Shown one piece after another: positions 6,952-58,254 of a stretch of DNA of 64,000 nt. Location: the NCBI GenBank assembly GCA_023129115.1, contig JAGMCR010000009.1, positions 6,121-70,120 on the forward strand. Direction: 5' to 3'. Within the stretch, counting starts at the first letter, position 1; each line of letters starts with the position of its first letter. The position numbers and the translations under genes are program-made. The notes under the pieces are model-generated. The model had not been told where the DNA came from and ran no database searches. It was given only the letters and a program-made list of their open reading frames with translations. The DNA is from Candidatus Iainarchaeum sp. GTDB taxonomy: Archaea > B1Sed10-29 > WALL01.

Positions 6952-7010
6952 TGCCTCTGGGGGCATCTGTTGATGCCCCCAAGTCTACCGCGCCAGCTGA
7001 GGTTTCGGCT
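6952..7010 (+). repeat. G-run hairpin mini-element, copy a (inserted between porA and porB)
   Basis: Sequence is TGCCTCT-GGGGGCATC-tgtt-GATGCCCCC-AAGTCTACCGCGCCAGCTGAGGTTTCGGCT. It has a perfect 9-bp stem (6959-6967 / 6972-6980). It is bracketed by the 16-bp direct repeat GAGGTGGCAGAGATGA (6930-6945 and 7016-7031). Confidence 0.8.
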
Positions 7011-7027
7011 GAGATGAGGTGGCAGAG

Positions 7028-7915
7028 ATGAGTAGTGAAGTTATTTCGTCTGGGCACTCGGCTTGCGCCGGGTGCGGCGAAATCATTGGCGAGCGCATGG
7101 TGCTCGAGGCGCTGGGCAAGGACGTGATTGTTTGCCAGGCGACGGGGTGCATGGAAATCACTACAACGCCTTATCCGCGGACCGCGTTCAAGGTGCCGTG
7201 GCTGCACGTGACTTTCGAGAACGCGGCGTCTGCCGCCAGCGGGATTGTCGAGGCCGACAGGAAGCTCGGCCGCAATACCACTGTCGTGGCCATCGGCGGC
7301 GACGGCGGCATGATGGACATCGGGGTTCGCGCCTTGAGCGGGGTGATGGAGCGGGGCCACGACCTGATGCTGGTCGTGACCGATAACGAGGCGTACATGA
7401 ACACCGGGATACAGCGGTCGAGCGGCACGCCGAAGTACGCGGCGACTACGACTACTCCGGCGGGCAGCGTTGTGCCTGGGAAGAGGGAGTGGAAGAAGAG
7501 CATTTCGAGGATTGCGATTGCGCACGGGATTCCGTACGTCGCGACGGCAAGCATTGGGTTCCCCGAGGACCTGGTGGCCAAGGTAAAGAAGGCCCAGGGC
7601 ATCAAGGGCCCAAAGCTGCTGCACATTTACACGCCGTGCCCTGTGGGGTGGGGGTATGACTCGAGCAAGACGGTTTACTACGCCAAGAAGATTGTCGAGA
7701 CCGGGCTGTGGCCGCTTTACGAGATAGAGAACGGGAAGCTCACGATAAGCCAGAGGCCGACGTTCGCGCCGCTGGAAGAATATTTCACTGGCCAGAAGCG
7801 GTACAAGCACATCAAGCCCGAGCACATCAAGGAAGTCAGTGAGCGCGTCAAGGCTGGCTGGAAAGAACTGGAAAAGCAGGAGAAGGCCGGCGTCGACTTG
7901 ATGCTTCTTCCCTAG
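7028..7915 (+). CDS. porB: 2-oxoacid:ferredoxin oxidoreductase, beta subunit (TPP-binding)
   Basis: N-terminal SGHSACAGCG cluster and the TPP motif GGDGGMMDIG. ATG 7028 is preceded by GAGGTG. The track start at GTG 7019 lies inside the duplicated 16-mer. Confidence 0.85.
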   Translation: MSSEVISSGHSACAGCGEIIGERMVLEALGKDVIVCQATGCMEITTTPYPRTAFKVPWLHVTFENAASAASGIVEADRKLGRNTTVVAIGGDGGMMDIGVRALSGVMERGHDLMLVVTDNEAYMNTGIQRSSGTPKYAATTTTPAGSVVPGKREWKKSISRIAIAHGIPYVATASIGFPEDLVAKVKKAQGIKGPKLLHIYTPCPVGWGYDSSKTVYYAKKIVETGLWPLYEIENGKLTISQRPTFAPLEEYFTGQKRYKHIKPEHIKEVSERVKAGWKELEKQEKAGVDLMLLP

Positions 7916-9480
7916 AGCCCTGCCTCGAGCTGTGACTTTAGCTGGCCGAGCTTCTGGATTATTTCCTTGGTCTTGGCGAGGTTTTGCAGCGAGACTGAGG
8001 TCTCGAGCGACACCAGGCCGATGTCTGTTTTTGCGACGAGCAGGTTGAGTGCGGAGACGTCCTGCCCCGCTGCCTTGCCTGTGGTGATTTTGCTTTTGGC
8101 GCTGGCGAGCGTGTCCTTCAGGAAGTCGGCGACGTCCTTGCCAAGCTTTTGCCAGAGGGCTTTTGCGTCCTCTGGCGACGCCGCGGTGTTCAGCTTCTTC
8201 TCGAATCCGGTGAACGTGTCAAGCACGGCCTTGTCTGCCTCGCCTCCCTTCAGCGCCTTCCTGAGCTCCAGCATTTTGGTCCTGACGTCTTTTTGGGCGG
8301 GCGCCGCGGCGCGCCTCGGCTTTGCGGCCTTGCCCTCAAGCTGCTCGAACTCTTTCTCGAAGTCCTGCCTGGAGAGTGTCGCGAGCACGGCCTTGCGGAC
8401 CAGTTCTTTCATCCCGCGGTCGAATTCCACGAGCTGCTGCTGTGTCTCTAGGAGGTCGCGCTCCTGGCGCTGCAGCGACTCCACGCGGTCCGCGAGCATG
8501 CCCATGGTGCCGCTGAACTCGTCAATCCTTTTGCCGAAGTCCCTTGACTTGATTTCCTTTGCCAGCGCCGCGAGGTCTGTGCGGATGTCGTGGACCTCTT
8601 GTAGGTTTTCGGTGTTGCGCTCCCCCCACTCCACGAGCTTTGTCTGGAGGCCCAAGACGGACTCGTTTAGGGTGTTCAGCTCCACGCGCTCCTTCCCGAC
8701 CGCGGAGTAAAGGTCCTCGAACTCCTCGTTGTGCTTGACGATTGTCTTCTTGAGCTCCTCGAACTTGTCGATGGAGCCCGCGACCTGGCCCATCTGGCCC
8801 ATGGTGCGCTCCATTTCCTTCTTGAGCTTTTCGCCGACCTGGGCCTGGGACTCGATGGCGGCGACGCGCTTCAGGAGCGCGTTTAGCTCTTTGGCGTTGC
8901 TCATGCTTTCCTTGTGCCACGCCTCGAGCTCGGTCTTGAGGGTCCGGAGGAATTCCTCTCCCTCTTTGGTCTCGGCCGCCATCTTGCGCGGCGCGGCCTT
9001 GACCTCTTCCTTGAGTGACGTGAGCTCTTCGTCGTGCCGCTGGTCGGTGCTGTCGGACGACGCAGAGAGCTCCTCGAGCTTTTTCTGCAGCTCGATTATG
9101 CGTTCTTTTTCCGTCTGCAGCTTGGAAAGCTGCTCCTCGATGGCGGCCCTCGCCTCGGGGGCTGCCTGCGAAAGCGGGAGCTTTGCGAGTGTCTCCATTT
9201 GGGCCTGGAGCCTGGCGAGCTCTGCCTTTGTCTCCGGCGGCATCGTGGGCTTCTTGGCCGCCATCTGCTGGACCTTCGTGGCCAGGCCCGCAATCTCCTG
9301 CTGGAGCTCGGGGGGGATTGCAGTCTTCTGGGAAAGCAGCTCGAGCCGCTTGTTCAGCGCCGCGATTGAGGTCTGGTTCCTCTTGCTCTCGTCGTGCCAC
9401 TCCTGCAGCTCGTCCTTTATGGACTTGAGGGAGATGGCGAGCTTCTGCATCACTTGCGCCGTAGAAACGTCTTCTGGCAT
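7912..9480 (-). CDS. Long coiled-coil protein (522 aa), function unknown
   Basis: E/K/Q/L/A-rich throughout. It has three internal repeats of the type L..EL.EWH.ES..N...L.AL.KR. No enzymatic motif. Confidence 0.6.
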   Translation of the reverse strand: MPEDVSTAQVMQKLAISLKSIKDELQEWHDESKRNQTSIAALNKRLELLSQKTAIPPELQQEIAGLATKVQQMAAKKPTMPPETKAELARLQAQMETLAKLPLSQAAPEARAAIEEQLSKLQTEKERIIELQKKLEELSASSDSTDQRHDEELTSLKEEVKAAPRKMAAETKEGEEFLRTLKTELEAWHKESMSNAKELNALLKRVAAIESQAQVGEKLKKEMERTMGQMGQVAGSIDKFEELKKTIVKHNEEFEDLYSAVGKERVELNTLNESVLGLQTKLVEWGERNTENLQEVHDIRTDLAALAKEIKSRDFGKRIDEFSGTMGMLADRVESLQRQERDLLETQQQLVEFDRGMKELVRKAVLATLSRQDFEKEFEQLEGKAAKPRRAAAPAQKDVRTKMLELRKALKGGEADKAVLDTFTGFEKKLNTAASPEDAKALWQKLGKDVADFLKDTLASAKSKITTGKAAGQDVSALNLLVAKTDIGLVSLETSVSLQNLAKTKEIIQKLGQLKSQLEAGL

Positions 9481-9519
9481 CGAATCAGGGTAAGATAACC
9501 ACGGAGGGTTTATAAATAT

Positions 9520-10184: not shown

Positions 10185-10250
10185 TGCCTCTCTTAAGGGG
10201 GGCTACGCCAATTGGCGTAGCCCCCCAAGTTGTGGGGATTAACCCCCATA
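10185..10250 (+). repeat. G-run hairpin mini-element, copy e
   Basis: TGCCTCT-cttaa- followed by the perfect 30-nt palindrome GGGGGGCTACGCCAATTGGCGTAGCCCCCC (10197-10226), then AAGT. A small second hairpin TGGGG-attaac-CCCCA follows at 10233-10248. The 3' boundary is uncertain. Confidence 0.7.
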
Positions 10251-39878: not shown

Positions 39879-39900
39879 CGGTCTTGTTTTGGAGTCCGGG

Positions 39901-39910
39901 TTTTATAAAG
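39901..39910 (+). promoter_or_regulatory. TATA-like box of pdxS-pdxT
   Basis: TTTTATAAAG lies about 38 nt upstream of ATG 39944. Confidence 0.4.
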
Positions 39911-39943
39911 TGGGGAGTCGATAAAGCCCCGCGAGGGATAACA

Positions 39944-41407: not shown

Positions 41408-41408
41408 G

Positions 41409-43214: not shown

Positions 43215-43270
43215 ACCAACTGCCTTGTGATTTGTACCCTAACCTTCTATCGCATGCTTAAAAAAACTTC

Positions 43271-43753: not shown

Positions 43754-43851
43754 TGGGTGATTTATAGCTATTGTAGTATATAAATATTACTATTACAATA
43801 GTAAATAACCTTATATGGCTCGGCAGAGAAAGTTTTCCTGGGGAGAGTAGA

Positions 43852-44112: not shown

Positions 44113-44129
44113 AGGCGTTCTGGTCTTCT

Positions 44130-44798
44130 TCAAGAGACTTGGCCCTGGAGTTCCTTGAACAGGCGGAAGGCTGTTATCGCATCGTCGTCTGTGAGAGTGA
44201 AAGTTATCTCCGTGTAGCTGGACACCATTTGCAAGACGTTTATTGAGTTGCGTGCCAGCACCCCACTCAAAAAGTAAAGGAAGCCAGGGGTGCTGATGGA
44301 CCGCGCTTCGCTGAACTCAAGGGCAGATAACCCCCTCATTGTCCCCAAGAGCTTTTTCTTTGGGACGAGGGAGACAAGCCGGTCGAAGCGTTTTTCCTCA
44401 AGGACGACTTCTATCTCGCTTGTGCTAAGTATCAAGTAAAAATTCTCGCCCTTCCCCCACTCGACTTCTTTCATCACCCTGAAAATCGCTTTCTCGACTT
44501 CTTCGTCCCGCTCCAGCGCAACGTCACACATCCCGGACTTCAAAGAAAAACGGCAGCCCTTCAGCACGTCCAGGACTTCCTCGGAAACGACTTCCTTCGC
44601 CAGCTTGTCCTCATACCTCTTCAAGGCCAGCACAATTGCTTCCCGCGTCACCTTCCTGCCGAACTCCGCTTCCACCTCCGTCTTTATGGAGTTGGCAAAA
44701 GCAGAGCAATTCAGCACGCCCAGCCGCAGGGAATCGCGGACAAAGACCAATCGGTCCACCCTCTGCCGCACTAGCCCCGCCAGGCTACTCTTCTCCAT
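44130..44798 (-). CDS. ACT-domain-containing protein (predicted small-molecule-binding regulator)
   Basis: C-terminal ...STPGFLYFLSGVLARNSINVLQMVSSYTEITFTL... is an ACT-like beta-alpha-beta-beta-alpha-beta segment. The family call is tentative. Confidence 0.5.
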   Translation of the reverse strand: MEKSSLAGLVRQRVDRLVFVRDSLRLGVLNCSAFANSIKTEVEAEFGRKVTREAIVLALKRYEDKLAKEVVSEEVLDVLKGCRFSLKSGMCDVALERDEEVEKAIFRVMKEVEWGKGENFYLILSTSEIEVVLEEKRFDRLVSLVPKKKLLGTMRGLSALEFSEARSISTPGFLYFLSGVLARNSINVLQMVSSYTEITFTLTDDDAITAFRLFKELQGQVS

Positions 44799-44851
44799 AA
44801 TGTTATATTTGTAACATTATGTATATATATGTAACTAAGCCCAATTATCGC

Positions 44852-45529
44852 ATGAAATTTGCAATCTCGAGGGAAGTGGCCAGAAAATACCCTGGACTGA
44901 AGATTGGGATTGTGGTTGTGAAAAGGCTTGACAACAGCGATTACCCCGACTCGATAAGGCTCTTGAAGCAAAACGCGGAAGAATACACCAAGTTCAATTT
45001 CCGGGGCCTTGTGCATCCCCACTTGTTGGCCTGGAGAGAGGCCTACAAGAAGTTTGGCTGCGATGGCGGGTGTTCTGCTGAGTGGCTGGTCAAGCGTATA
45101 TTGGAGAAGAAAGCACTGCCGAAGATAAACAAGCTCGTCGACATCTACAACCTCGTGTCAGCCAAGAACGCCATGCCAATCGGCGGGCAGGACCTCGACA
45201 GGATTTGTGGGGACATAGTCTTGAGGATTTCACCGGGCGGCGAAAGGTTTGTGGGGATTGGCGGGAAAGAAGAAAAGACAACCCCCGGTGAAGTGGTTTA
45301 CGCCGACGATGAAAAAGTGTTGTGCAGGAATTGGAACCAAAAAGATTGTGATGCCGCCAAGTTTACCAAGGAAACCAAAAAAGCTGTCTTGTTCGTCGAT
45401 GGAATCGGTGGCATAAGCGAGGAAGCAGTAAAGAAAACAGCGAAGGACTTGGAGAGTATTATAACAGAGTACGGGAACGGCGTGGCAACTTCTTATTTTC
45501 TAGTGGGAGCCAACAGTGTTTCGCTGTGA
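44852..45529 (+). CDS. B3/B4 tRNA-binding-domain protein (PheRS-beta B3/4-like)
   Basis: KINKLVDIYNLVSAKNAMPIGGQDLD and CRNWNQKDC are typical of stand-alone B3/4-domain proteins. I start at MKFAIS (ATG 44852). Confidence 0.6.
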   Translation: MKFAISREVARKYPGLKIGIVVVKRLDNSDYPDSIRLLKQNAEEYTKFNFRGLVHPHLLAWREAYKKFGCDGGCSAEWLVKRILEKKALPKINKLVDIYNLVSAKNAMPIGGQDLDRICGDIVLRISPGGERFVGIGGKEEKTTPGEVVYADDEKVLCRNWNQKDCDAAKFTKETKKAVLFVDGIGGISEEAVKKTAKDLESIITEYGNGVATSYFLVGANSVSL

Positions 45530-45573
45530 GTCAGGTCACAGGAAAGATGATTTCGAGGCCTGCCTTGAAGCCG

Positions 45574-46116
45574 TCAGTCACTTTCTTCTCCGCCCTGTAT
45601 CTCTTCCATCACTTCGTCGATTCTTTCGTGGAGCTCTTTAAGAGTGCCCTCGTTGCGGATGATGTGGTCCGCCATCATGAACACAGTCTCCATGCCCTTG
45701 TTCTTGAGGTCGCGCTCGTCCCTCCCGAAGAACGCTTTCTTGTCCTGGGGGTCACTGTCGTCGCGGCGGGTGTAGCGCATTTCGCGCGGGGCTGACGCCA
45801 TTAGGAGGAAGAAGTGGGCGGTCTTGGCACGGAAGAACTCAACTTCTTGGGGGCTTCGGAATCCCGTTATGACGGCGTCCTCGGCGTCTATGATTGGGAA
45901 GAGCATGTTGGCCATTACGCCCATTCCACCTTCCTTGCGGAGCTCGTCGCCTAAGCGGCTTGCGTTGTCCTTGGTCGGCTCGAGGCCGCGCTTCTCAAGT
46001 TCCTTGAGGAAGACGTCATGGTAAAAGTCAAACTGCTTGAAGCCGTACTCCTTCATCAAGTAATGCGCGACAGTGTCCTTGCCGCTCCTCGCCGGGCCGG
46101 TCAAACCGATAATCAT
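45574..46116 (-). CDS. P-loop kinase, archaeal UPF0200 / dephospho-CoA-kinase-like family
   Basis: Walker A IIGLTGPARSGKDT, followed by ...GFRSPQEVEFF... and FFGRDERDL, as in UPF0200 proteins. I start at ATG 46116. Confidence 0.6.
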   Translation of the reverse strand: MIIGLTGPARSGKDTVAHYLMKEYGFKQFDFYHDVFLKELEKRGLEPTKDNASRLGDELRKEGGMGVMANMLFPIIDAEDAVITGFRSPQEVEFFRAKTAHFFLLMASAPREMRYTRRDDSDPQDKKAFFGRDERDLKNKGMETVFMMADHIIRNEGTLKELHERIDEVMEEIQGGEESD

Positions 46117-46148
46117 AGTAACCACGTTAGTAAAGGAACCTCGGAAAG

Positions 46149-47421
46149 TTATACAAGAAAGCTTTATAAAAGCATGAAGAGGTATTAAAGTATATGAAAA
46201 TTCACACCTTGGACGTGTTGCCCCGTCAGGTGAGAACAAAAGCTGGTAAAAAGCGGCTGCTCGTCTTGAAAGAAGGTTCCATCAGCTCCCTTCTGCCCAT
46301 AAAACTCAGGATATTGCGCCTACTCTCTAAGAAAGCCTTAAAAACAACCCAAGTCACGGAATTGCTAGGGATCCAGAAAAGGACGACCAGAAAATTTTTA
46401 AATGAGCTCGAGATTGAAGAAAAAATTGTGAGGACAGAAGGCAATCGCATTAACAACTCTTTTCGTTTCGCTGATTCATGGAGAATTGTTGGCAAGATAA
46501 GTGGCATCCCAAATAAACCCCCAAAAGACAGGGTATGTGTCTGGTACTCCACCAAGCACACTAATTACTCTACCCGTCATTACTGTTTTTTGCCGAAAGA
46601 GATAGGGCTAACAGACAACATCGCGTCTGCTATTGGCATATTTGATGGTGAGGGCAGCAAAACAAAAATTACTACGTTGGAGATTGTGAACAACGAGCCA
46701 CTGGTGATTAAATGCCTACTGGAGTTTTTTGGGATTTTTGGCATTCGGAAAAAAGACTGGAAGTGGAGATTAACATTCAATATTAAACTGAAGGACAAGT
46801 TGAGTGTAAAGGCTATTAAGAAGGCAAGAGAGTATTGGGTCAAGAGCACAAAGATATCCGCTGAAAACGAGACTGCTAGCTCCCCACAGTTTTTGGGTAC
46901 CCGCATAGGCAAAATCAGACGAGGCCCTCCGTGGGGGGCTTTGAGTATTTTTTACAATAGTGTGATACTGCGGAGCGTGCTAGCCTCAATTATGGAAAAC
47001 TTAAAACCAATGATACTACAGGATCCGCAGCTGGTCGCGGGGTATCTTAGGGGCTACCTCGCTGCAGAAGCATACGTTGGAGCAAACGACAGGGCGATAC
47101 AAACAGCCTCAACAAGAAAAGAAGAACTTGCTTATCTTGGAAAATGCTTTGATGTTATAGGGGTTAAAGCATCCATGAGTAAAGCAACAAGCACGTCGCC
47201 ACCACGCATTATTGTTACCAATTTTGATTCTTTCATGAAGCTATACAAGTTAGACGTGTTCAGGCTTCATCCATACAAAAAGGCTAACTTGCTTTCAAAA
47301 TTACTAAATTATACCCTATTAACTGGGGATGACAAAGAAAAAATTGGAAAAGAATTGAAGACACTAAACAACAAAATAGAAAACAGAGAAAAGCCTTTCA
47401 AAAAATTTACTTATACAAAAA
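46149..47421. mobile_element. Putative insertion of the LAGLIDADG gene, bounded by a short direct repeat that copies the gatD tail
   Basis: TTATACAAGAA (46149-46159) versus TTATACAAAAA (47411-47421), 10/11. The right copy is the gatD 3' end (reverse complement ...TTTTTGTATAAGTAA). The left copy (reverse complement TTTCTTGTATAAC) sits in the promoter region of the kinase gene. The repeat is short and AT-rich, so chance is not excluded. Confidence 0.35.
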
Positions 47422-47447
47422 CATATCTGGCTCGAGCTGGGGGTTGA
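46194..47447 (+). CDS. Free-standing LAGLIDADG homing-endonuclease-like protein with N-terminal wHTH
   Basis: Two LAGLIDADG-type motifs, IASAIGIFDGEGS and LVAGYLRGYLAAEAYVG, lie about 150 aa apart. An N-terminal wHTH (LRLLSKKALKTTQVTELLGIQKRTTRKFL) precedes them. This is the most AT-rich gene here. Its last 41 nt overlap the gatD 3' end. Confidence 0.65.
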   Translation: MKIHTLDVLPRQVRTKAGKKRLLVLKEGSISSLLPIKLRILRLLSKKALKTTQVTELLGIQKRTTRKFLNELEIEEKIVRTEGNRINNSFRFADSWRIVGKISGIPNKPPKDRVCVWYSTKHTNYSTRHYCFLPKEIGLTDNIASAIGIFDGEGSKTKITTLEIVNNEPLVIKCLLEFFGIFGIRKKDWKWRLTFNIKLKDKLSVKAIKKAREYWVKSTKISAENETASSPQFLGTRIGKIRRGPPWGALSIFYNSVILRSVLASIMENLKPMILQDPQLVAGYLRGYLAAEAYVGANDRAIQTASTRKEELAYLGKCFDVIGVKASMSKATSTSPPRIIVTNFDSFMKLYKLDVFRLHPYKKANLLSKLLNYTLLTGDDKEKIGKELKTLNNKIENREKPFKKFTYTKTYLARAGG

Positions 47448-48741: not shown

Positions 48742-49428
48742 TCAACCACTCGACGTTAGCTTTTCGCCCTTCTCGTTTTTAATGATAGGCACGGCCACGA
48801 CTTCCAGTGGCTGGAGCCCGAGCTCGATGCGCTTTTCATTGATTAGGTCGGCGCTGGGCCTCGTCTCGTCGCTGACCACGATGGTGCTGAACCGCGGCTC
48901 AAGCGCAAAGCCGTAGACGTCATCTATCTCGCAAATCACTGCGCCCCAGCCCATTTCCGAGAGGAACCGCTCGAGGCCTGCCTGCCTCTCCGCGAACGAA
49001 GGCACGTTGGAGTGCTTGGAAGACGCGAACTCGTCGCTCGTCAAGCCGATTTCCACTATCTTCCCAAGCGCGAACGCCATGCTGAACAAGTACTCGTGGC
49101 CCTTGTGGATAGCGCTGAAGGTCCCGCCAACACAGACCATGTCGCCCTTCTCTGCCGAAGCGTCCGGGAGGCGGATGTGCTCCAGGGAGCTGGAAGGAGT
49201 GGCAGCACTGGAGGAGCCGGCTTCTTCGCCACTGGGGGGGCTGGCAACTGCCAGCCCCCCGGTTTCAGCTTCTTCCTCCCCCGGTTGTGGCTCCTCTTCG
49301 ACGGTTTCTGGCTCTTCTTCAGTTTCTTGTTTTTCCTCCCCGGTTTCTTCTTCGGGCTCCAAAAGCAGGTCCTCGTCTTCTTCAATGTCCATTGCCGGGT
49401 CCAGCGGCGGGGGTGGGGGGCTGTTCAT
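48742..49428 (-). CDS. coaD: Phosphopantetheine adenylyltransferase (archaeal type) with a 96-aa acidic low-complexity N-terminal extension (or start at ATG 49140)
   Basis: The catalytic domain begins at MVCVGGTFSAIHKGHEYLF (nucleotidyltransferase H-x-G-H). Upstream is an in-frame P/E-rich region that contains a hairpin-element palindrome. Confidence 0.7.
   Translation of the reverse strand: MNSPPPPPLDPAMDIEEDEDLLLEPEEETGEEKQETEEEPETVEEEPQPGEEEAETGGLAVASPPSGEEAGSSSAATPSSSLEHIRLPDASAEKGDMVCVGGTFSAIHKGHEYLFSMAFALGKIVEIGLTSDEFASSKHSNVPSFAERQAGLERFLSEMGWGAVICEIDDVYGFALEPRFSTIVVSDETRPSADLINEKRIELGLQPLEVVAVPIIKNEKGEKLTSSG
49235..49270 (+). repeat. G-run hairpin element-like palindrome embedded in an ORF, copy f
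   Basis: GGGGGGCTGGCA-AC-TGCCAGCCCCCC (49235-49260) followed by GGTTTCAGCT (compare GGTTTCGGCT at the end of copy a). It reads in frame as ETGGLAVASPP on the minus strand. Confidence 0.55.
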
Positions 49429-50146: not shown

Positions 50147-51337
50147 ATGGCGCACTCGAAAGAGAGGTACCTCTTCCGCAAGAAGCTGAAGGAACTGTCC
50201 GAAATGAAGGGACAGGGGACAGAATTGATTAGTATCTACATTACGCCCGGCTACAACGTCAGCGAGGTCACGAACAAGCTCCGCGAAGAAGCTGGCCAGG
50301 CCATGAACATCAAGAGCAAGCAGACGCGGAAAAACGTGAGTGCCGCGATTGAGCGGCTCCTGCACGCGCTGAAGAACATGAAGAAGCCGCCCGAGAACGG
50401 GCTCGCGATTTTTTCGGGAAACATCGACGACAAGGTCGAGTTGTTCTCGATTGAGCCGCCCGAGCCACTGAATATCCAGACGTACAGGTGCGACTCACAG
50501 TTCTTTTTGGACCCGCTGTGGGACATGCTCGAGGCCAAGGAGGCGTACGGCCTGATTATTGTTGACAGGCGCGAGGCCACGCTCGCGCTGCTGAAGGGCA
50601 AGCGCATCGAGCTAATAAAGTCCATGGGGTCGCAGGTCCCCGGAAAGCACCGCGCCGGCGGGCAAAGCAGCGTGCGTTTTGAAAGGCTTATTGAAATCGC
50701 CGCGCACGAGTGGTTCAAGAAAGTCGGCGACCTGGCGAACAAGAACTTCGAGCCCGAAGAGGTCAAGGGCGTTATTTTGGGTGGGCCGGGCCCGACCAAG
50801 CACGGGTTCCTGAACGCGGACTACCTCAGCAACAAAACCAAGAAAAAAATTGTCGCCACTGTGGACACGAGCTACACCGACGAGTTCGGCATACGCGAGC
50901 TGATGCAGAAGTCTGGCGACGTGATGCACGACCTCGAGATAATCAAGGAAAAGAAGCTCCTCGAAAAGTTTTTGAGCGAGGCGGCGCTAGGCGGCCTGGC
51001 GGCGTACGGCGAGAAAGAGGTGCGCGAGGCGCTCACGATGGGCAAAGTGGACACACTGCTCTTGAGCGAGGAATTGATGTGGAAGCGCGTCGAGTTCAAG
51101 TGCCCCCAGTGCGGCGCAATCAAGGAGATGACGGTGAAGGAGCACATGCCACTCGTGAAGTGCGACAAGGACCACATGAACATGGCGCCGCACGTCGAGA
51201 AGGACTTCGTGGAAGAATTGGCCGAGCTCGCGGAGCAGATGGCCAGCAAAATCGAGATGATTTCGACGGACACGCCGGAAGGGGAACAATTTAAAGAGGG
51301 GTTTGGTGGGATAGGTGCGCTCCTGAGGTTTAAATAA
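50147..51337 (+). CDS. prf1: Peptide chain release factor aRF1
   Basis: NIKS motif (AMNIKSKQTR) and GGQ motif (HRAGGQSSVRFERL). Confidence 0.9.
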   Translation: MAHSKERYLFRKKLKELSEMKGQGTELISIYITPGYNVSEVTNKLREEAGQAMNIKSKQTRKNVSAAIERLLHALKNMKKPPENGLAIFSGNIDDKVELFSIEPPEPLNIQTYRCDSQFFLDPLWDMLEAKEAYGLIIVDRREATLALLKGKRIELIKSMGSQVPGKHRAGGQSSVRFERLIEIAAHEWFKKVGDLANKNFEPEEVKGVILGGPGPTKHGFLNADYLSNKTKKKIVATVDTSYTDEFGIRELMQKSGDVMHDLEIIKEKKLLEKFLSEAALGGLAAYGEKEVREALTMGKVDTLLLSEELMWKRVEFKCPQCGAIKEMTVKEHMPLVKCDKDHMNMAPHVEKDFVEELAELAEQMASKIEMISTDTPEGEQFKEGFGGIGALLRFK

Positions 51338-51382
51338 TATATAAGGAAAAGCTTATATATGTAAGTAATTCCTAATACCTGC

Positions 51383-51946
51383 ATGCGGCTCGACAGAGTT
51401 TTAAACGAACTGCTTGGTTCTCAAGCCAAAGTAAGGATTACAAGGGTGGTTGTCACTAACCCCCGGCTGGAGCACACCGGGAGGGAACTTGCCCTGATTG
51501 CGGAAATATCTCAACCACAAGCCAAGGAAGCGCTGGGGGTGTTGGAGACTTATGGGGTGGTTGGGAGCAGGACCGTGGGGCGGGCAATCGTGTGGAGACT
51601 AAATAAAAAAAACTATATTTACAAAGAATTGCTGCTGCCTTTGTTCACGAATGAAAAAATGGTGCTAAGGGATTTGAAAAAAGAACTTGCCCGGACTCTC
51701 GAGCCATTCTCGGAAAAAGTCATTTTATTTGGGAGCATTGCCCGGGAGGGGGGCGGGTCGTCAAGTGACTTGGACTTGTGTGTTGTCACAAAGAACAAGA
51801 AACTAGCCAAAAAAGCACTCTTGGATTTGGGGGCAGAAATTGCCAGAAAGTATAATATAGTTGTTTCGTCAGTAATTTATTCGCCGAAAGAATACAAAAC
51901 ATCAAAAATAATCGAGGGGGGAGAGGCAATATGCGAACGAGGATAG
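51383..51946 (+). CDS. Nucleotidyltransferase (MNT-type) with N-terminal wHTH
   Basis: NTase motif LFGSIAREGGGSSSDLDLCVV (G-S-x-x-R...D-x-D). An N-terminal wHTH-like region precedes it. Confidence 0.7.
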   Translation: MRLDRVLNELLGSQAKVRITRVVVTNPRLEHTGRELALIAEISQPQAKEALGVLETYGVVGSRTVGRAIVWRLNKKNYIYKELLLPLFTNEKMVLRDLKKELARTLEPFSEKVILFGSIAREGGGSSSDLDLCVVTKNKKLAKKALLDLGAEIARKYNIVVSSVIYSPKEYKTSKIIEGGEAICERG

Positions 51947-52329
51947 TGGAAAAATTCAAGTACAATAATTTTCTTCAAAAGGCTAGAGAGTTTTATGACG
52001 AGATGAATGAGGCCCATGCAGCAAAGCGCTGGAATGCTGTTGGATTAAACGGTATTCACTGTGCAATCAGCTGCTGCGACGCGGTGACAGTTTACTTTCT
52101 CGGCAAACGAAGTGCTGGAGAGCGACACGAAGAAGTGGTCAAACTGCTACAGCAAATAAAGGACGTCGATGAAAAAGTAATAAAGCAGAGGATTGTGCAG
52201 ATTCTTGATGTGCTGAGGTCCAAAACACGAGTGGAGTACCACGCAGAAGTATTTTCTGAGAAAGAAGCTGGCATGATAGTCAAGCAAACAAAACGGGTTT
52301 ATGAATGGACAACTGGGCTACTTAAATGA
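51931..52329 (+). CDS. HEPN-domain protein (partner of the MNT gene)
   Basis: 132-aa helical protein that overlaps the MNT gene by 16 nt. It has R-x-x-x-H (RVEYH) near the position of the HEPN R-x(4-6)-H motif. The pairing is typical of HEPN/MNT modules. Confidence 0.6.
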   Translation: MRTRIVEKFKYNNFLQKAREFYDEMNEAHAAKRWNAVGLNGIHCAISCCDAVTVYFLGKRSAGERHEEVVKLLQQIKDVDEKVIKQRIVQILDVLRSKTRVEYHAEVFSEKEAGMIVKQTKRVYEWTTGLLK

Positions 52330-53399
52330 TAATCAAGCAGTCGCCGCAAGATTTTGTTGTCGAAGAAATAACTCTTGACGGGGAAGTGCTGGAGGTCGGG
52401 AAAGAATATTCTTTTTCTGGTGGGGAGGGAGAGCACCTTGTTTTTGTGCTGGAGAAGACAAACTGGGCGACTATGGGCGCGATGAAGGAATTGGGAAAGC
52501 GCTTGCATTGCTCGGAAAAGCGCTTGGGGTTCGCGGGCACCAAGGACCGGCGCGCCGTGACAACGCAGAGGTGCTCTGCGTGGAACGTGAAGAAGGAAGA
52601 GCTTGACAAAGTAAATATAAAAGACATAACGCTGAAGCCGCTCTGCTATGGCGAGCGCGTGGGGCTCGGCGACCTGTGGGGGAACAGGTTCACGATAACA
52701 GTGCGGGAGTTCGACGGCGAGGGAAAAATGCCGGAGAAAATCCCGAATTTTTTCGGGCCGCAGCGGTTTGGGGGGCAGAGGCCGATAACCCACCTCGTCG
52801 GCAAGGCGATTGTGAACGGCCAGTTCCACGACGCCGCCGACATATACCTTTTTGAGACGATGGAGGGCGACCCGGAGAGGGAAGTGCGGGAGAAATGCAG
52901 GGGCGACTACGCCCGCGCCCTCAAGGAATTCCCGATGCACCTTAAGTACGAGCGGTCGATGCTTGGCTGGCTCGCGAAGAGCCCGGGCGACTGGGTGGGT
53001 GCGCTGCGGGCATTGCCGCGGAAATTGCTGGTGATGTTCGTTCATGCTTACCAGTCGCACTTGTTCAACCGCGTGCTCGAGGAGCGGGGCATTGAGCCGA
53101 GGAAAGGGGACGTCCTTGAGGAGGGAGTGCCCACGGGCCCGCTGTTTGGCATGGAGTGCCCGCTCGCCGCCGGGGAGGCGGGCGAGATTGAGCGCCGCGT
53201 GCTTGAGGGCGAGTGGCTGGGGCTGAGGGACTTCGAAATCCACGGCATGCCTGACCTGACGAGCAAGGGCATGAGGCGGAGGCTCTGGATTGAGCCGAAG
53301 GGCTTCGAGGTGTTGGAGGGGGGCGGGAGCTGGATAAAAGTAAGGTTTTCGCTGCCGAAGGGGTGCTACGCGACTACTGCGTTAGATTACCTGAAGTAG
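52326..53399 (+). CDS. truD: tRNA pseudouridine synthase TruD/Pus7 family
   Basis: FAGTKDRRAVTTQ catalytic-Asp motif, and NFFGPQRFG. Confidence 0.85.
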   Translation: MIIKQSPQDFVVEEITLDGEVLEVGKEYSFSGGEGEHLVFVLEKTNWATMGAMKELGKRLHCSEKRLGFAGTKDRRAVTTQRCSAWNVKKEELDKVNIKDITLKPLCYGERVGLGDLWGNRFTITVREFDGEGKMPEKIPNFFGPQRFGGQRPITHLVGKAIVNGQFHDAADIYLFETMEGDPEREVREKCRGDYARALKEFPMHLKYERSMLGWLAKSPGDWVGALRALPRKLLVMFVHAYQSHLFNRVLEERGIEPRKGDVLEEGVPTGPLFGMECPLAAGEAGEIERRVLEGEWLGLRDFEIHGMPDLTSKGMRRRLWIEPKGFEVLEGGGSWIKVRFSLPKGCYATTALDYLK

Positions 53400-53400
53400 A

Positions 53401-53500
53401 TGCCTCTGGGGGGCGTCAACTGCCACCGGCTTAGGGGGGCGCCGACTGGCGCCCCCCTAGTCCATTGCGATGGCTTGGTAGTCTAACGCGAAGTTATCCT
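53401..53500 (+). repeat. G-run hairpin mini-element, copy b (composite/nested)
   Basis: It starts 1 nt after the truD stop with TGCCTCT-GGGGGGCGTCAACTG, whose 15 nt GGGGGGCGTCAACTG match copy c. A complete hairpin TAGGGGGGCGCC-gact-GGCGCCCCCCTA follows at 53432-53459, then TAGTCCATTGCGATGGCTTGGTAGTCTAACGCG. It is bracketed by GTTAGATTACCT at 53381-53392 and 53506-53517. Confidence 0.7.
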
Positions 53501-54353
53501 AAGCTGTTAGATTACCTTCAGTAAGGTTTCCCGGCTCGGCAGGAATGGCCAAGAAGTACGGCAGGCCTTCCCTCAGGAGCCCTATTGTCGCGTTGACCGC
53601 TTTTTGCGAGTCGCCGGGGGCGGGCTGTATGTCTATGGTCGAGTTGCCCACGTGCACCTGTGTCGTGGGGTAGGACGGGTAGCGCAGGATTATGGACGGC
53701 TCCTCGAGGGCCTGGCGGCACTTTTCGACCGGGACTTGCGCGTTTGAGCTGTTGGTGCACGAGAGCCAGTCGCCGTCCGCCTGCACGCCGTAGACGCTCA
53801 CGTTCACCCCCTCTGACGCGAGGTGGAAGACGAGCGGCACGAACGCGTCGACTGCTCCCTGGGGGTCTTCGCCGGGCTTTACCTCGAAAAAGAAGTTCAC
53901 TTCGGGGGAGTAGCCCAGCAATGCCGCCTTGAGCAGGGGGTTCCAGTGGTACGAGTAAAAGATTATGCCTGCCTGCTTGTCGCCGGCGGCGTTGTAGTCT
54001 ACGTAGAGGCCTTCCGAGTTGTGCAGGAGCTTGTGGCCGTTCTCGTCAGTGGCGTAGACGCTTATTTGCTTAAGGCCGACGTCGTCGTACGGCGAGACGA
54101 AGTAGCTGAAGAAGTAGCTGTTGCCCTCCTGCCTGTCAAGGGTGGCCTCGCGGTCCGGGAGGAGAACTGATATCTGGTTGAGCGGAATGCTGGAGTCCAC
54201 GCGTATCGTGGCGTAGCCTATGGCTGCGGGCTGGGGATGGGCGGAGACATTGAGCTCGGCGCGCTCGCTGTGGGACGTGCCGAAGTACGAAGTGATGCCT
54301 ATTGAAATGACGACTATAAGGGCGAGGAATATCCATTGCTTTTGTGCTTTCAT
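53499..54353 (-). CDS. Secreted protein with signal anchor, several N-x-S/T sequons, function unknown
   Basis: N-terminal MKAQKQWIFLALIVVISIGITSYF. It is downstream of, and possibly co-regulated with, the large surface protein gene. Confidence 0.55.
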   Translation of the reverse strand: MKAQKQWIFLALIVVISIGITSYFGTSHSERAELNVSAHPQPAAIGYATIRVDSSIPLNQISVLLPDREATLDRQEGNSYFFSYFVSPYDDVGLKQISVYATDENGHKLLHNSEGLYVDYNAAGDKQAGIIFYSYHWNPLLKAALLGYSPEVNFFFEVKPGEDPQGAVDAFVPLVFHLASEGVNVSVYGVQADGDWLSCTNSSNAQVPVEKCRQALEEPSIILRYPSYPTTQVHVGNSTIDIQPAPGDSQKAVNATIGLLREGLPYFLAIPAEPGNLTEGNLTA

Positions 54354-57730: not shown

Positions 57731-57752
57731 TTGGGTTTGTTTAAAAACGCTT

Positions 57753-58049
57753 ATGGTCAATCCCGCCAACTTCACGGCGCTGCCCATTGCATTTAACGAG
57801 CCGAGCGGGCTCATAGTGCTCGCCGTGGGCGCAGTCGTCGTCGTTGCCGCGTTCTACATATTCTTCCGCATAATCAAGGACGTCATCGCAAACGCCATAA
57901 TCGGCGGAATCGGCTTGATAGTGCTGCACTTCGCCGGCCCACACATCGGCGTCAGCGTGCCCATCGACTTGATAAACATCGTAATCGCCATCCTCGGCGG
58001 ATTGCCGGGACTGGCCATAATAGTCGTTTTCTCGGCTCTTGGGCTATAG
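57753..58049 (+). CDS. Small membrane protein, BofA-like (tentative)
   Basis: 98 aa with 3 hydrophobic helices. The pattern IANAIIGGIGLIVLHF...INIVIAILGGLPGLAIIV recalls the BofA family. I start at ATG 57753. Confidence 0.4.
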   Translation: MVNPANFTALPIAFNEPSGLIVLAVGAVVVVAAFYIFFRIIKDVIANAIIGGIGLIVLHFAGPHIGVSVPIDLINIVIAILGGLPGLAIIVVFSALGL

Positions 58050-58110
58050 CCTAGCTCAGTAGACTAGGGGGGCGTCAACTGACGCCCCCCCTAGGCTGGT
58101 TTGAATTAAG
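58050..58110 (-). repeat. G-run hairpin mini-element, copy c
   Basis: Plus strand: CCTAGCTCAGTAGACTA-GGGGGGCGTC-aact-GACGCCCCCC-CTAGGCTGGTTTGAATTAAG, with the stem at 58067-58076 / 58081-58090. Its two ends abut the TAG of the BofA-like gene and the TAA of the duplicated radical SAM tail. Confidence 0.75.
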
Positions 58111-58198
58111 TTATTTGAATACTCCAGCAATCTTCGCGCTGCACGACGGGCACTTCCCCTTGTCCACGTGGCTTTCCAGCAGCGCGAAGCCGTGCCGC
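58111..58198 (-). pseudogene. Displaced duplicate of the last 29 codons of the radical SAM gene
   Basis: The minus strand reads RHGFALLESHVDKGKCPSCSAKIAGVFK-stop, versus RHGFALLESHVDKGKCHSCGQKIAGVFK-stop in the real gene. 58149-58198 is identical to 58294-58343 (50/50). The last 39 nt differ at 14 positions. Confidence 0.8.
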
Positions 58199-58254
58199 AG
58201 CCCAAACCTGAGCTGGCGAGGTAGACTTGGGGGGCACAAAGCCCCCCAGAGGCA
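58199..58254 (-). repeat. G-run hairpin mini-element, copy d
   Basis: The reverse complement is TGCCTCT-GGGGGGC-tttgt-GCCCCCC-AAGTCTACCTCGCCAGCTCAGGTTTGGGCT. It starts 1 nt after the radical SAM TAA. Its flanks are nearly identical to copy a. Confidence 0.8.

What the first reader, a model, noticed from the sequence alone, without database searches (positions are those of the whole stretch)
6952..58254. Family of G-run/C-run hairpin mini-elements with conserved flanks and covarying stems (six copies in 64 kb)
Copies:
- a: 6952-7010 (+)
- e: 10185 to about 10250 (+)
- f: 49235-49270 (+, inside an ORF)
- b: 53401 to about 53500 (+, composite)
- c: 58050-58110 (-)
- d: 58199-58254 (-)

Each copy has a perfect palindrome that opens with G5-6 C and closes with G C5-6:
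- GGGGGCATC/GATGCCCCC
- GGGGGGCTACGCC/GGCGTAGCCCCCC
- GGGGGGCTGGCA/TGCCAGCCCCCC
- TAGGGGGGCGCC/GGCGCCCCCCTA
- GGGGGGCGTC/GACGCCCCCC
- GGGGGGC/GCCCCCC

The inner stem bases and loops differ between copies but always remain complementary, which is covariation. The flanks, in contrast, are conserved. Copy a and the reverse complement of copy d share TGCCTCTGGGGG on the left (12/12). On the right they share CCCCCAAGTCTACC.CGCCAGCT.AGGTTT.GGCT (32/35 by eye). Copies b and c share TAGTC.A.TG.G.T.GCT after the C-run.

Three copies begin 1-7 nt after a stop codon:
- TAG-A-TGCCTCT at 53397-53407
- TAA-C-TGCCTCT on the minus strand at 58258-58248
- TGA-CTATGA-TGCCTCT at 6943-6958

The window holds no transposase. 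The elements are analogous in style to bacterial REP/BIME, Correia and Rickettsia palindromic elements and to archaeal MITEs. I do not recognise this sequence family.
Basis: seen in the sequence. Interest (0 to 1): 0.8.

Follow-up and report, generated by a model that had tools for sequence, protein, structure and literature searches.

The report
Mobile G/C-clamp hairpin elements, archaeal
The six hairpins belong to a previously undescribed family of about 58-nt non-coding mobile elements in an uncultured DPANN-like archaeon; they sit at gene ends and are flanked by unusually long, variable duplications of host sequence (about 18-90 nt).

Summary
The window holds six G5-7/C5-7 perfect hairpins against 0.3 expected by chance.

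Five of them (a, b, c, d, e) share flanks. A covariance model built from type-1 copies recovers b2 and c at full length. Copy f is a degenerate member.

The full element reads TGCCTCT, a hypervariable G/C-clamp hairpin (HP1), AAGTCTACC, then a second hairpin (HP2) ending in GCTG.

Related copies were found only in a narrow clade of uncultured archaea: a single-cell genome (SAG AM-311-L14) and a few metagenome contigs. No match was found in Rfam, phage, plasmid or IMG/VR collections.

Relatives supply empty sites for a, b, c, d and e. In those relatives the flanking genes abut or overlap.

Four insertions carry flanking direct repeats of host DNA of 18-90 nt. In each, the second repeat starts exactly at the element's GCTG end.

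There are no terminal inverted repeats, and the window encodes no transposase or reverse transcriptase.

HP1 stems are purely Watson-Crick, which points to DNA-level palindrome upkeep. HP2 shows G·U pairs and compensatory changes, which looks RNA-like.

Best reading: a new non-autonomous mobile element, anchored at its 3' end and making long variable target duplications. The mobilising enzyme is unknown. It is a new variant of the REP/MITE kind.

The parts
6952..7011 (+). Copy a. A complete type-1 element between porA and porB: TGCCTCT, HP1 (6959-6980), AAGTCTACCGCG, HP2 (6994-7011) ending in GCTG.
   Evidence: Sequence. Covariance model 88.8 bits. Two-hairpin fold. The site is empty in four relatives.
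6925..6945 (+). Target duplication of a, copy 1 (GAGACGAGGTGGCAGAGATGA). It holds the porA 3' end and stop codon. The filler CTATGA follows at 6946-6951.
   Evidence: D3; score 39, empirical p below 0.001. Empty-site sequences.
7011..7031 (+). Target duplication of a, copy 2 (GAGATGAGGTGGCAGAGATGA). It holds the porB ribosome-binding site and ATG. Its first G is shared with the element's terminal G.
10185..10249 (+). Copy e. TGCCTCT, CTTAA, HP1 (10197-10226), AAGT, then a window-specific 18-nt mini-hairpin (10232-10249). It lies in the divergent intergenic region between the SpoU-methylase gene start and the next gene's TATA box. It lacks the HP2 module.
   Evidence: An orthologous copy in the SAG has one compensatory change and one mismatch. 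The site is empty in L015 and L027.
49228..49270 (+). Copy f. A degenerate member: cGCCaCT, HP1 (49234-49260), GGTTTCaGCT. It lies inside the non-conserved spacer or N-terminal extension of a cytidylyltransferase-like (PF01467) gene on the minus strand.
   Evidence: The covariance model hits only HP1 (11 bits). The spacer is absent in L022 and unrelated in sequence in the SAG.
53401..53422 (+). Copy b1. The 5' part of a type-1 element (TGCCTCT plus the left arm and loop of HP1), cut off inside the hairpin. It starts 1 nt after the truD stop codon.
   Evidence: In the SAG the orthologous site holds an intact type-1 element. The 15 nt GGGGGGCGTCAACTG are identical to the plus strand of c.
53427..53506 (+). 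Copy b2. A complete diverged ('type-2') element. HP1 (53434-53457) is enclosed by an outer stem CGGCTTAG/CTAAGCTG and the element ends in AAGCTG. Its last bases supply the stop codon of the convergent gene (53499-53501).
   Evidence: Covariance model 29.2 bits, E 1e-5. Fold. Coordinates.
53381..53398 (+). Target duplication of b, copy 1 (GTTAGATTACCTGAAGTA). This is the truD 3' end.
   Evidence: score 26, p = 0.008. In L030, truD and its convergent neighbour overlap by 9 nt with no element between them.
53506..53523 (+). Target duplication of b, copy 2 (GTTAGATTACCTTCAGTA). This is the 3' end of the convergent minus-strand gene 53499-54353.
58040..58097 (-). Copy c. A diverged ('type-2') element between the relic amrS tail and the convergent bofA-like gene: CAGCCTA, HP1, TAGTCTACT, GAGCTAGGCTATAGCC.
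   Evidence: Covariance model 36.7 bits, E 9e-8. An orthologous copy is in the SAG. The site is empty in L030, where amrS and bofA overlap by 4 nt.
58198..58254 (-). Copy d. A complete type-1 element starting 1 nt after the amrS stop codon.
   Evidence: Covariance model 79.7 bits. Absent from the SAG and from L030.
58254..58343 (-). Duplication flanking d, gene-proximal copy. These are the functional last 90 nt of amrS (... RHGFALLESHVDKGKCHSCGQKIAGVFK*).
   Evidence: D2. (score 114).
58109..58198 (-). Duplication flanking d, distal relic copy of the amrS tail. The first 49 nt are identical to the functional copy. The last 41 nt are 66% identical and still encode ... CPSCSAKIAGVFK*.

Best explanation
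These are copies of a small non-coding, non-autonomous mobile element.

Anatomy. The full-length form is about 58 nt:
- a 5' TGCCTCT
- a very stable hairpin clamped by G5-6/C5-6 runs, with a hypervariable interior (HP1)
- a conserved linker, AAGTCTACC
- a second short hairpin (HP2) that ends the element at ...GCTG

Insertion. The element is copied into new sites, almost always at the very end of a gene. The process joins the 3' GCTG end precisely to the target. It leaves 1-13 nt of filler at the 5' end. It duplicates a long, variable stretch of target (18-90 nt). I infer staggered target cleavage, or 3'-anchored copying, by an enzyme encoded elsewhere in the genome. The most likely candidate is a DNA transposase of the kind that makes long variable duplications. 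The genome is compact and its genes overlap. The insertions that survive are therefore those whose duplication regenerates both neighbouring gene ends.

After insertion. The element is co-transcribed with the upstream gene as a 3'-UTR or intercistronic double hairpin. Its conserved parts are kept under constraint.

HP1 upkeep. The HP1 interior turns over quickly while staying perfectly complementary. I infer that the two arms template each other at the DNA level.

Shown: family membership, insertion polymorphism, the duplications, the precise 3' junction, the conservation pattern.
Inferred: the cleavage or copying mechanism, trans-mobilisation, transcription, any host function.

Confidence by layer: about 0.8 that this is a mobile non-autonomous element with long duplications; about 0.35-0.4 for the DNA-transposase version of the mechanism.
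For: Family:
- Flanks are shared between a and d (36 nt at 92%).
- Intact copies occur in the single-cell genome AM-311-L14 and in a JGI metagenome contig.
- The covariance model R1 recovers b2 and c at full length.
- Related 'type-3' copies have HP1 nested inside HP2 (L017:2684, L019:3518).

Mobility, from empty sites in relatives:
- a: porA and porB overlap as ATGA in L014, L015/16, L027 and L028.
- d: absent in the SAG (L009) and in L030.
- b and c: absent in L030, where the flanking genes overlap by 9 and 4 nt. b is also absent in L019.
- e: absent in L015 and L027.
- The L019 copy is absent in the window and in the SAG.

Duplications. Flank-against-flank alignment scores, compared with 3000 random positions:
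- a: 39 (p < 0.001)
- d: 114 (p = 0)
- b: 26 (p = 0.008)
- L019: 23 (p = 0.03)
In all four, the right-hand copy begins at nucleotide 0 after GCTG.

5' chimeras. b (53401-53506) and L004 (4180-4271) each have a truncated 5' part followed by a full copy.

Constraint. Between the window and L013, porB is 84% identical (68% at third codon positions). The element's 3' module is 31/31 identical and its 5' end 12/12, while the HP1 interior differs.

Hairpin pairing:
- HP1 has 142 Watson-Crick pairs, one register-dependent G·U and two mismatches in 15 copies.
- HP2 pair 6 is G-C, C-G or U-A; pair 5 is U·G in the a/L013 and d/L009 forms and U-A in L004 by direct reading of its 6-bp stem (the MAFFT alignment misplaces L004 by one column). 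One search lists three pair types at pair 6.

Precedent for long variable duplications: IS1549 and IS1634 make repeats of 8-514 bp, and that family is 'remarkably diverse in archaea' (PMC2266710).
Against: - No mobilising enzyme was found. None is encoded in the window or in about 250 kb of related loci. I could not search the rest of the genomes.
- I saw no terminal inverted repeats when comparing the two ends by eye (no formal test), although a DDE transposase would normally need them.
- Copies c, e and L004 show no detectable duplication.
- The 90-nt duplication at d is not a simple target duplication. Its first 49 nt are identical, while the last 41 nt differ at 14 positions. Those differences fall mostly at synonymous sites, so both tails evolved as coding sequence. 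An additional recombination event is needed to explain this.
- In 4 of 5 events one edge of the duplication coincides exactly with a stop codon. Neither random staggered cutting nor selection alone predicts that.
- Only about five independent insertion events were available.
- Transcription and function are untested.
Confidence: 0.6

Rival explanations
1. A SINE-like retroposon. The element is transcribed as part of the upstream gene's mRNA. A reverse transcriptase recognises the 3' stem-loop (HP2) and copies the RNA into a nicked target by target-primed synthesis. It switches template at the 5' end. The result is a variable-length target duplication.
For: - The 3' terminus is exact and abuts the duplication, while the 5' junction is ragged, with 1-13 nt of filler.
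- Duplication length varies from 18 to 90 nt.
- There are chimeras of a truncated 5' part followed by a full copy: b and L004.
- The 3'-terminal hairpin has G·U pairs that work only on the sense strand, plus compensatory changes.
- All four loci that lie downstream of a gene hold the element in sense orientation, directly after the stop codon (a, b, c, d).
Against: - No reverse transcriptase was seen in any available locus.
- There is no A-rich or repeat tail and no internal promoter.
- Target-primed retroposons other than group II introns are not established in prokaryotes.
- Copy e lacks the 3' module rather than the 5' one.
- HP1 is perfectly Watson-Crick, which speaks for DNA-level rather than RNA-level constraint.
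Confidence: 0.2
2. A REP-like element moved as single-stranded DNA by a RAYT or IS200/IS605-type Y1 (HUH) transposase that recognises the hairpin.
For: - It is a short GC-rich palindrome, mostly just downstream of genes.
- Subfamilies carry alternative complementary stem residues, as described for REPs (PMC3733652).
- On the antisense strand a GTAG lies near the stem in type-1 copies and in c (GGTAGACTT|G6 and AGTAGACTA|G6).
- The element has two subterminal hairpins, like a miniature IS200/IS605.
Against: - Y1 transposition makes no target duplication, yet four insertions have 18-90-nt duplications.
- The GTAG is 4 nt from the stem foot rather than adjacent. It is absent from e, f and the type-3 copies.
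- No Y1 transposase was seen in the available loci.
- REP stems within one genome are not hypervariable in this way.
Confidence: 0.07
3. This is primarily a host functional motif. It could be a 3'-UTR or intercistronic RNA hairpin that blocks the exosome, marks processing or termination, or binds a protein. It spreads by local duplication and gene conversion rather than by a dedicated transposition machinery.
For: - The conserved parts are far better conserved between orthologous copies than synonymous sites of the neighbouring gene.
- The elements lie in sense orientation after stop codons.
- Exosome genes are present in the window (Rrp41, Rrp42, Rrp4).
- In copy a, a 27-codon mini-ORF starts 2 nt after the porA stop and ends on the ATGA of porB, so translational coupling could be preserved. 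The 6-nt HP1 length difference in L013 keeps that frame.
Against: - Insertions at unrelated loci carry locus-specific duplications and a constant 3' terminus, which needs a copying-in mechanism.
- Copies also occur in 5' UTRs, in promoter regions and antisense to genes (e, f, L017, L019).
- Close relatives manage without the element at every site examined.
- This reading does not exclude mobility. Domestication after insertion is compatible with the best explanation.
Confidence: 0.1
4. The flanking repeats are scars of horizontally acquired DNA, not of transposition. Foreign DNA would have integrated by homology at one end and illegitimate joining at the other. The hairpins would merely mark such junctions.
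For: - The amrS tail next to d and its relic differ mainly at synonymous sites, as two diverged alleles would.
- The same pattern occurs at an unrelated 1.2-kb LAGLIDADG-ORF insertion. There the adjacent GatD tail is synonymously recoded and the ancestral tail survives as a relic.
- A 1-kb orphan-gene insertion also carries a 37-nt flanking repeat.
Against: - Copy a has nearly identical repeats (20/21) and no foreign gene. The inserted DNA is only the element.
- The same element sequence is inserted at unrelated genes, for which no homology anchor exists.
- The constant GCTG junction is not explained.
Confidence: 0.05

Closest known systems
REP/BIME elements of bacteria (RAYT-associated; GTAG- or CGTC-tagged palindromes)
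   Same: Short GC-rich palindromes. They lie mostly just downstream of genes and are probably transcribed as RNA hairpins. Subfamilies have alternative complementary stems. They are non-coding and dispersed.
   Different: These elements have a second conserved hairpin and about 35 nt of conserved non-palindromic sequence. They are flanked by long target duplications. They have no stem-adjacent GTAG tag. No RAYT is known for them. They are archaeal and limited to a narrow clade. The interior of the main stem is hypervariable.
MITEs (bacterial and archaeal), including Correia/NEMIS
   Same: Small, non-coding, non-autonomous and structured. Presence and absence differ between relatives. They carry target duplications and are co-transcribed with neighbouring genes.
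   Different: No terminal inverted repeats were evident. The duplication is long and variable (18-90 nt) rather than short and fixed (2-10 nt). The two ends are asymmetric, with an exact 3' end and a ragged 5' end. No parent IS has been identified.
IS1634/IS1549 (IS4-related DDE family)
   Same: This is the only prokaryotic transposons I could document that make long, variable-length direct repeats (8-514 bp). The family is diverse in archaea (PMC2266710).
   Different: Those are 1.5-2-kb autonomous elements with inverted repeats and a transposase gene. No such gene or inverted repeats were seen here.
Eukaryotic SINEs and non-LTR target-primed retroposition
   Same: Variable-length target duplications, an exact 3' end and a variable 5' junction, 5' chimeras, and a 3' stem-loop as a possible recognition element.
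   Different: There is no poly-A or repeat tail, no internal promoter and no known reverse transcriptase partner. The host is a prokaryote.
Rickettsia palindromic elements and mitochondrial GC clusters or organellar palindromic repeats
   Same: Selfish GC-rich palindromic mini-elements that can sit inside reading frames (compare f) and spread within compact genomes.
   Different: The sequences are unrelated. Those elements have short or no target duplications and no two-module architecture. These comparisons rest partly on my own recall.
Mycobacterial MIRUs
   Same: They are intercistronic and lie within operons. A small ORF overlaps the upstream stop and the downstream start. Copy a has such a mini-ORF.
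   Different: MIRUs are tandem repeats without the G/C-clamp hairpin. The mini-ORF is seen only in copy a. This comparison rests on my own recall.

Membership tests
REP (RAYT-type) | A 20-40-nt imperfect palindrome, dispersed and extragenic | tested here: met
   HP1 is 16-30 nt. The copies lie at gene ends.
REP (RAYT-type) | An unpaired GTAG or CGTC tetranucleotide directly at one end of the stem (PMC3733652) | tested here: not met
   On the antisense strand a GTAG lies 4 nt from the stem foot in type-1 copies and in c. There is none in e, f or the type-3 copies.
REP (RAYT-type) | Insertion without target duplication (HUH/Y1 single-strand mechanism) | tested here: not met
   Four insertions have 18-90-nt flanking duplications that start at the element's end.
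REP (RAYT-type) | A RAYT (Y1 transposase) gene in the genome | not testable with these tools
   Only about 78 kb of the source scaffold and about 170 kb of relatives could be read. None was seen there.
MITE | Terminal inverted repeats matching a parent IS | tested here: not met
   The 5' end is TGCCTCTGGG. The reverse complement of the 3' end is CAGCCCAAACC. They share only GCC.
MITE | A short target duplication of fixed length | tested here: not met
   Lengths are about 18-21, 20-22 and 90 nt.
MITE | Small, non-coding, multi-copy, with presence/absence polymorphism | tested here: met
   There are eight modules in about 78 kb. Empty sites exist for a, b, c, d and e.
IS1634-type DDE transposition | Long, variable-length direct repeats at insertion | tested here: met
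   Literature precedent.
IS1634-type DDE transposition | A DDE transposase and inverted ends | not testable with these tools
   No transposase is present in the available loci. The ends are not inverted repeats.
SINE-like / target-primed retroposon | Variable-length duplications, an exact 3' end, a heterogeneous 5' junction | tested here: met
   GCTG abuts the repeat in every event with a defined duplication. The filler is A, C, CTATGA, ACCATTTAA or TTATATTCAAGCA. There are 5' chimeras in b and L004.
SINE-like / target-primed retroposon | A reverse transcriptase partner in the genome, with an A-rich or repeat tail or an internal promoter | tested here: inconclusive
   There is no tail or promoter in the element. 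No reverse transcriptase is present in the available loci. The whole genome was not searchable.
Any Rfam RNA family (including C/D box sRNA) | A score at or above the family's gathering threshold | tested here: not met
   The only hit in the window is tRNA-His. At lax thresholds there are only sub-threshold snoRNA-like hits at copy a, the best 20.7 bits against a 64-bit cut-off. Box C and box D are not conserved across copies.
Diversity-generating retroelement target (VR / hairpin / TR) | TR-VR differences confined to template adenines, with a reverse transcriptase nearby | tested here: not met
   The 14 differences between the two amrS tails involve all four bases. There is no reverse transcriptase in the window.

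The most novel reading that the evidence does not exclude
These are prokaryotic SINE-like retroposons, or more generally elements inserted by 3'-anchored, target-primed copying with template switching. They use the mRNA of the gene they trail as their vehicle. They have been partly domesticated as 3'-UTR or intercistronic RNA modules in a DPANN-like archaeal lineage. The exact coincidence of duplication edges with stop codons would then reflect an RNA-level or translation-linked step in insertion.
Probability: 0.2. Interest if true: 0.85.

Novelty: new variant of a known kind. Interest (0 to 1): 0.6.

Why it matters
Small interspersed hairpin repeats are well studied in bacteria (REP, Correia, RPE). 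They are much less documented in archaea, and I found no report of them for DPANN-like lineages with tiny, gene-dense genomes.

This family shows how a selfish element can colonise a genome in which genes overlap. Each surviving insertion duplicates the overlapped gene ends, so that both neighbours stay intact.

Three features together do not fit the standard DDE-MITE or HUH-REP mechanisms:
- long, variable target duplications
- an exact 3' end with a ragged 5' end
- no inverted repeats

They point to an IS1634-like process, which has no mechanistic model, or to target-primed copying, which would be new for prokaryotic non-intron elements.

The family also offers a clean natural example of two different ways to keep a stem paired. 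One is DNA-templated and purely Watson-Crick. The other tolerates G·U pairs and looks RNA-like. That distinction is a caution for covariation-based RNA discovery.

Tried and rejected
- Rfam, at gathering and lax thresholds: no family. A C/D-box sRNA was considered because copy a has ATGATGC ... CTGA. It was rejected because the boxes are absent in the other copies.
- DGR (variable repeat, hairpin, template repeat) at the amrS locus: rejected. The differences are not adenine-specific and there is no reverse transcriptase.
- Integrase att-site or integron attC-like reading: rejected. The same element sits at unrelated genes, each with its own duplication.
- Viral or plasmid origin: no match in IMG/VR with three patterns (the single hit, L029, has no hairpin). 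No match in the INPHARED phage or PLSDB plasmid collections.
- Genome-wide pattern scan: 10 of the 12 hits were bacterial chance matches without a hairpin.
- ORF328 (38123-39109), a 1-kb insertion with a 37-nt flanking repeat, was tested as a possible autonomous partner. It has no Pfam, NCBIfam, PHROG or PDB match. There are only 7 representatives among 1.8 billion proteins. The structure model has pLDDT 40. Nothing supports an enzymatic role, and I did not run a fold search on so poor a model.
- ORF247 and ORF328 are unrelated to each other.
- Extending the source scaffold by 4 kb upstream and 10 kb downstream found one more copy (L017:2684) and none in the his operon.
- One contig look-up was wasted on a protein with a different called start, and one on P0121.
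- Microhomology between the element's 3' end and the target was seen at a (CGGCG against CGGCTG) and weakly at b. It was not seen at d or L019, so I give it no weight.

Full report
**1. Observation**

Reading the stated coordinates and listing all G/C runs confirms six perfect G5-7 ... C5-7 hairpins:
- a: 6959-6980
- e: 10197-10226
- f: 49234-49260
- b: 53434-53457, preceded by a half hairpin from 53408
- c: 58067-58091
- d: 58229-58247

First-order Markov simulations of the window give 0.29 such hairpins on average, with a maximum of 3 in 200 runs. Copy a and the reverse complement of d share TGCCTCTGGGGG and a 36-nt right flank at 92% (I1, E 1e-8). The three stop-codon adjacencies are exact.

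**2. Anatomy**

Aligning a, d and three copies from other genomes and folding them shows a two-hairpin element of about 58 nt:
- TGCCTCT
- HP1, a G/C-clamped hairpin with a variable interior and a loop of 3-5 nt, mostly 4
- AAGTCTACCNCG
- HP2 (CAGCTN-AGGTTT-NGGCTG), which ends the element

A covariance model built from the five type-1 copies hits c (58040-58097, minus strand, 36.7 bits) and b2 (53427-53485, 29.2 bits) over its full length.

- Copy b is a chimera. The 5' part of a type-1 copy is cut inside HP1 (53401-53422). A complete diverged copy follows and ends in AAGCTG at 53506.
- Copy e has TGCCTCT, HP1 and AAGT but lacks HP2.
- Copy f keeps only degenerate flanks.
- In 'type-3' copies found in relatives, HP1 sits inside the HP2 stem: GGGGGGTGCTCGCCAGCTCAG-N-HP1-AAGGGGCTG.

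**3. Where it occurs**

The window comes from metagenome scaffold ZHAN22-2_SAMN18200505_METAG-scaffold_7, 268,886 nt. The nearest named homologues of its PorA and GatD are 'Candidatus Diapherotrites' and other DPANN archaea, at 55-62% identity. The window carries ordinary housekeeping genes and no transposase or reverse transcriptase.

One scan of 185,579 species genomes gave true hits only in 'Archaeon isolate SAG AM-311-L14'. The other 10 hits lack a hairpin. One scan of JGI metagenomes gave a single contig, L013, which is orthologous to site a. There was no match in Rfam, IMG/VR, or the phage and plasmid collections. A relative at 81% PorA identity has one type-3 copy in 34 kb. A 40%-GC relative has none.

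**4. Mobility**

Syntenic loci from relatives supply empty sites.

| Site | State in this genome | Empty in relatives |
|---|---|---|
| a | between porA and porB | porA and porB overlap as ATGA in the SAG, GCA_027007625.1/REYS20-1, L027 and L028; filled only here and in L013 |
| d | after amrS, with its 90-nt repeat | absent in the SAG and in L030 |
| b and c | after truD; between amrS and bofA | absent in L030, where truD and its convergent neighbour overlap by 9 nt and amrS/bofA by 4 nt; b also absent in L019 |
| e | SpoU-methylase intergenic region | present in the SAG, absent in L015 and L027 |
| L019 type-3 copy | not present here | absent in the window and in the SAG |

**5. Flanking duplications (new)**

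Four insertions are flanked by direct repeats of host sequence.

| Insertion | Repeat | Content |
|---|---|---|
| a | 21 nt, 20/21 identical | porA stop codon plus the porB ribosome-binding site and ATG |
| b | 18 nt, 16/18 identical | the overlapped 3' ends of truD and its convergent neighbour |
| d | 90 nt | the amrS tail |
| L019 | 20-22 nt | the eRF1 start codon and 5' leader |

Against 3000 random positions the empirical p values are below 0.001, 0.008, 0 and 0.03. In all four, the right-hand repeat begins at the first nucleotide after the element's GCTG. The 5' junction instead carries filler: A, C, CTATGA, ACCATTTAA or TTATATTCAAGCA. Copies c, e and L004 have no detectable repeat. SAG-b and L017 have only diverged traces. 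In four of five events one edge of the repeat coincides with the outer edge of a stop codon (a, b, d and L017).

**6. Two kinds of stem maintenance**

HP1 in 15 copies has 142 Watson-Crick pairs, one register-dependent G·U in copy c and two mismatches. Its interior differs between all copies. It differs even between orthologous a and L013 (22 nt against 16 nt). The flanks of those two copies are identical (31/31 and 12/12), while the adjacent porB is 84% identical and only 68% at third codon positions.

The conserved modules are therefore under constraint or are being homogenised. The HP1 interior turns over quickly yet always stays perfectly paired. I infer arm-to-arm templating at the DNA level.

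HP2 and the outer stems of b2 and c show U·G pairs and compensatory changes. Pair 6 is G-C, C-G or U-A. These work only on the sense strand, as expected for an RNA-level or single-strand constraint.

**7. Mechanism**

Shown:
- copy-in insertion at gene ends
- an exact 3' junction and a ragged 5' junction
- long, variable duplication of the target
- no evident inverted repeats
- no enzyme gene nearby

Inferred as most likely: trans-mobilisation by an enzyme that makes widely staggered target cuts. IS1549 and IS1634 are the documented precedent, with repeats of 8-514 bp and no mechanistic model. That family is diverse in archaea (PMC2266710). In a genome where genes overlap, selection would keep only insertions whose duplication regenerates both gene ends.

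I put about 0.8 on 'a mobile non-autonomous element with long duplications'. I put about 0.35-0.4 on the DNA-transposase version and about 0.2 on target-primed, SINE-like copying. The 3'-anchored asymmetry, the filler, the 5' chimeras (b and L004) and the sense orientation after stop codons all fit the SINE-like version.

REP/RAYT-type single-strand transposition is disfavoured by the duplications and by the missing stem-adjacent GTAG tag (PMC3733652).

A host role after insertion is compatible with the conservation pattern but is untested. Candidates are 3'-end protection against the exosome, whose genes are in the window, or preservation of translational coupling through the mini-ORF in copy a.

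**8. Unexplained**

The two amrS tails flanking d are identical over 49 nt. They then differ at 14 of 41 positions. In the last five codons every difference is a synonymous third-position change. The relic tail carries CPxC..AK, a motif common in more distant AmrS homologues. Both tails therefore evolved as coding sequence, so a plain target duplication followed by decay does not explain them.

A parallel exists at an unrelated 1.2-kb insertion carrying a LAGLIDADG-like ORF. There the adjacent GatD tail is synonymously recoded and the ancestral tail survives as a relic. Recombination with diverged alleles may overlay some of these junctions.

The coincidence of duplication edges with stop codons is also unexplained.

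**9. Verdict**

It is a previously undescribed family, restricted to a small clade of uncultured DPANN-like archaea. I classify it as a new variant of the small-interspersed-repeat kind (REP/MITE-like in style). It fails the defining tests of both of those groups because of its long, variable target duplications and its asymmetric ends.

Noticed in passing
window 38058-39162: A 1,068-nt insertion carries one orphan ORF (38123-39109, minus strand, 328 aa). The ORF has no Pfam, NCBIfam, PHROG or PDB match and only 7 representatives among 1.8 billion proteins. The insertion lies between the THUMP-gene stop codon and the GTPase-gene start. It is flanked by a 37-nt direct repeat (38058-38094 and 39126-39162, 78% identical). 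That repeat contains the GTPase TATA box and the THUMP 3' end. The SAG has the two genes adjacent, with an e-like hairpin element abutting the THUMP stop codon instead.
   Followed up: partly
window 46128-47421: A 1.2-kb insertion with a LAGLIDADG_3/HTH ORF (46194-47447, plus strand) lies between GatD and a dNMP-kinase-like gene. Those two genes are 10 nt apart in the SAG. The GatD tail next to the insertion is synonymously recoded (TTT TTG TAT AAG TAA). A relic of the ancestral tail (TAGTAAAGGAACC, as in the SAG, L019 and L022) sits at 46128-46140, and a second short relic at 46149-46159. This looks like a free-standing homing-endonuclease gene with a protected target.
   Followed up: partly
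window 357-1163: An insertion of about 790 nt carries one unannotated ORF (384-1127, minus strand, 247 aa) between ftsZ and the IF-2B-like gene. It is flanked by a perfect 13-nt direct repeat, GTTTAAATAGGTT (357-369 and 1151-1163), which contains a TATA-like box. A TGCCTCT motif lies 4 nt inside the right-hand repeat. The insertion is absent from the SAG and from L015.
   Followed up: partly
window 39876-41433; 43150-45583; 51336-52343: Three gene blocks are present here but absent from the otherwise syntenic SAG region. They are pdxS/pdxT, a block of four small genes that includes B3_4 and DUF7523/ACT proteins, and a block of two small genes between eRF1 and truD. No long flanking repeats were found. 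Conversely, the SAG has a 2-kb radical-SAM gene inserted at window position 3717-3720.
   Followed up: partly
window 49130-49428 (and L018 9376-9600): The spacer or N-terminal extension between the uridylate-kinase-like gene and the cytidylyltransferase-like (PF01467) gene is 0-290 nt long in different relatives. Its sequence is unrelated between the window (acidic) and the SAG (basic and proline-rich). In both genomes it contains G-run/C-run and CCAGCTCA-like fragments, as if built from decayed elements. It stays open as an ORF that overlaps the upstream stop codon.
   Followed up: partly
window 10232-10249: An 18-nt mini-hairpin, GTGGGGATTAACCCCCAT, lies directly after copy e. It is present here but not in the orthologous SAG copy.
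   Followed up: no
L024 1-30 (Logan SRR13892594 contig): An independent assembly of the same organism breaks exactly inside the 49-nt segment that is duplicated on both sides of d. This is consistent with a real repeat confusing the assembler.
   Followed up: partly
L028 9965-10000: In the 40%-GC relative, a hairpin (GGTGGGT...ACCACCC) followed by a run of nine T lies after porB. It looks like a classical terminator. That relative has no G/C-clamp elements.
   Followed up: no
window 27863-27922: There are five tandem copies of a 12-nt unit (CTTGGCTTTCTT). I did not establish whether they lie in a coding region.
   Followed up: no
window 1-64000: Base composition is asymmetric between strands. 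The plus strand has G 30.5% against C 26.5% across the whole window, although genes lie on both strands. The one RNA gene detected is tRNA-His (GTG) at 59557-59629.
   Followed up: no
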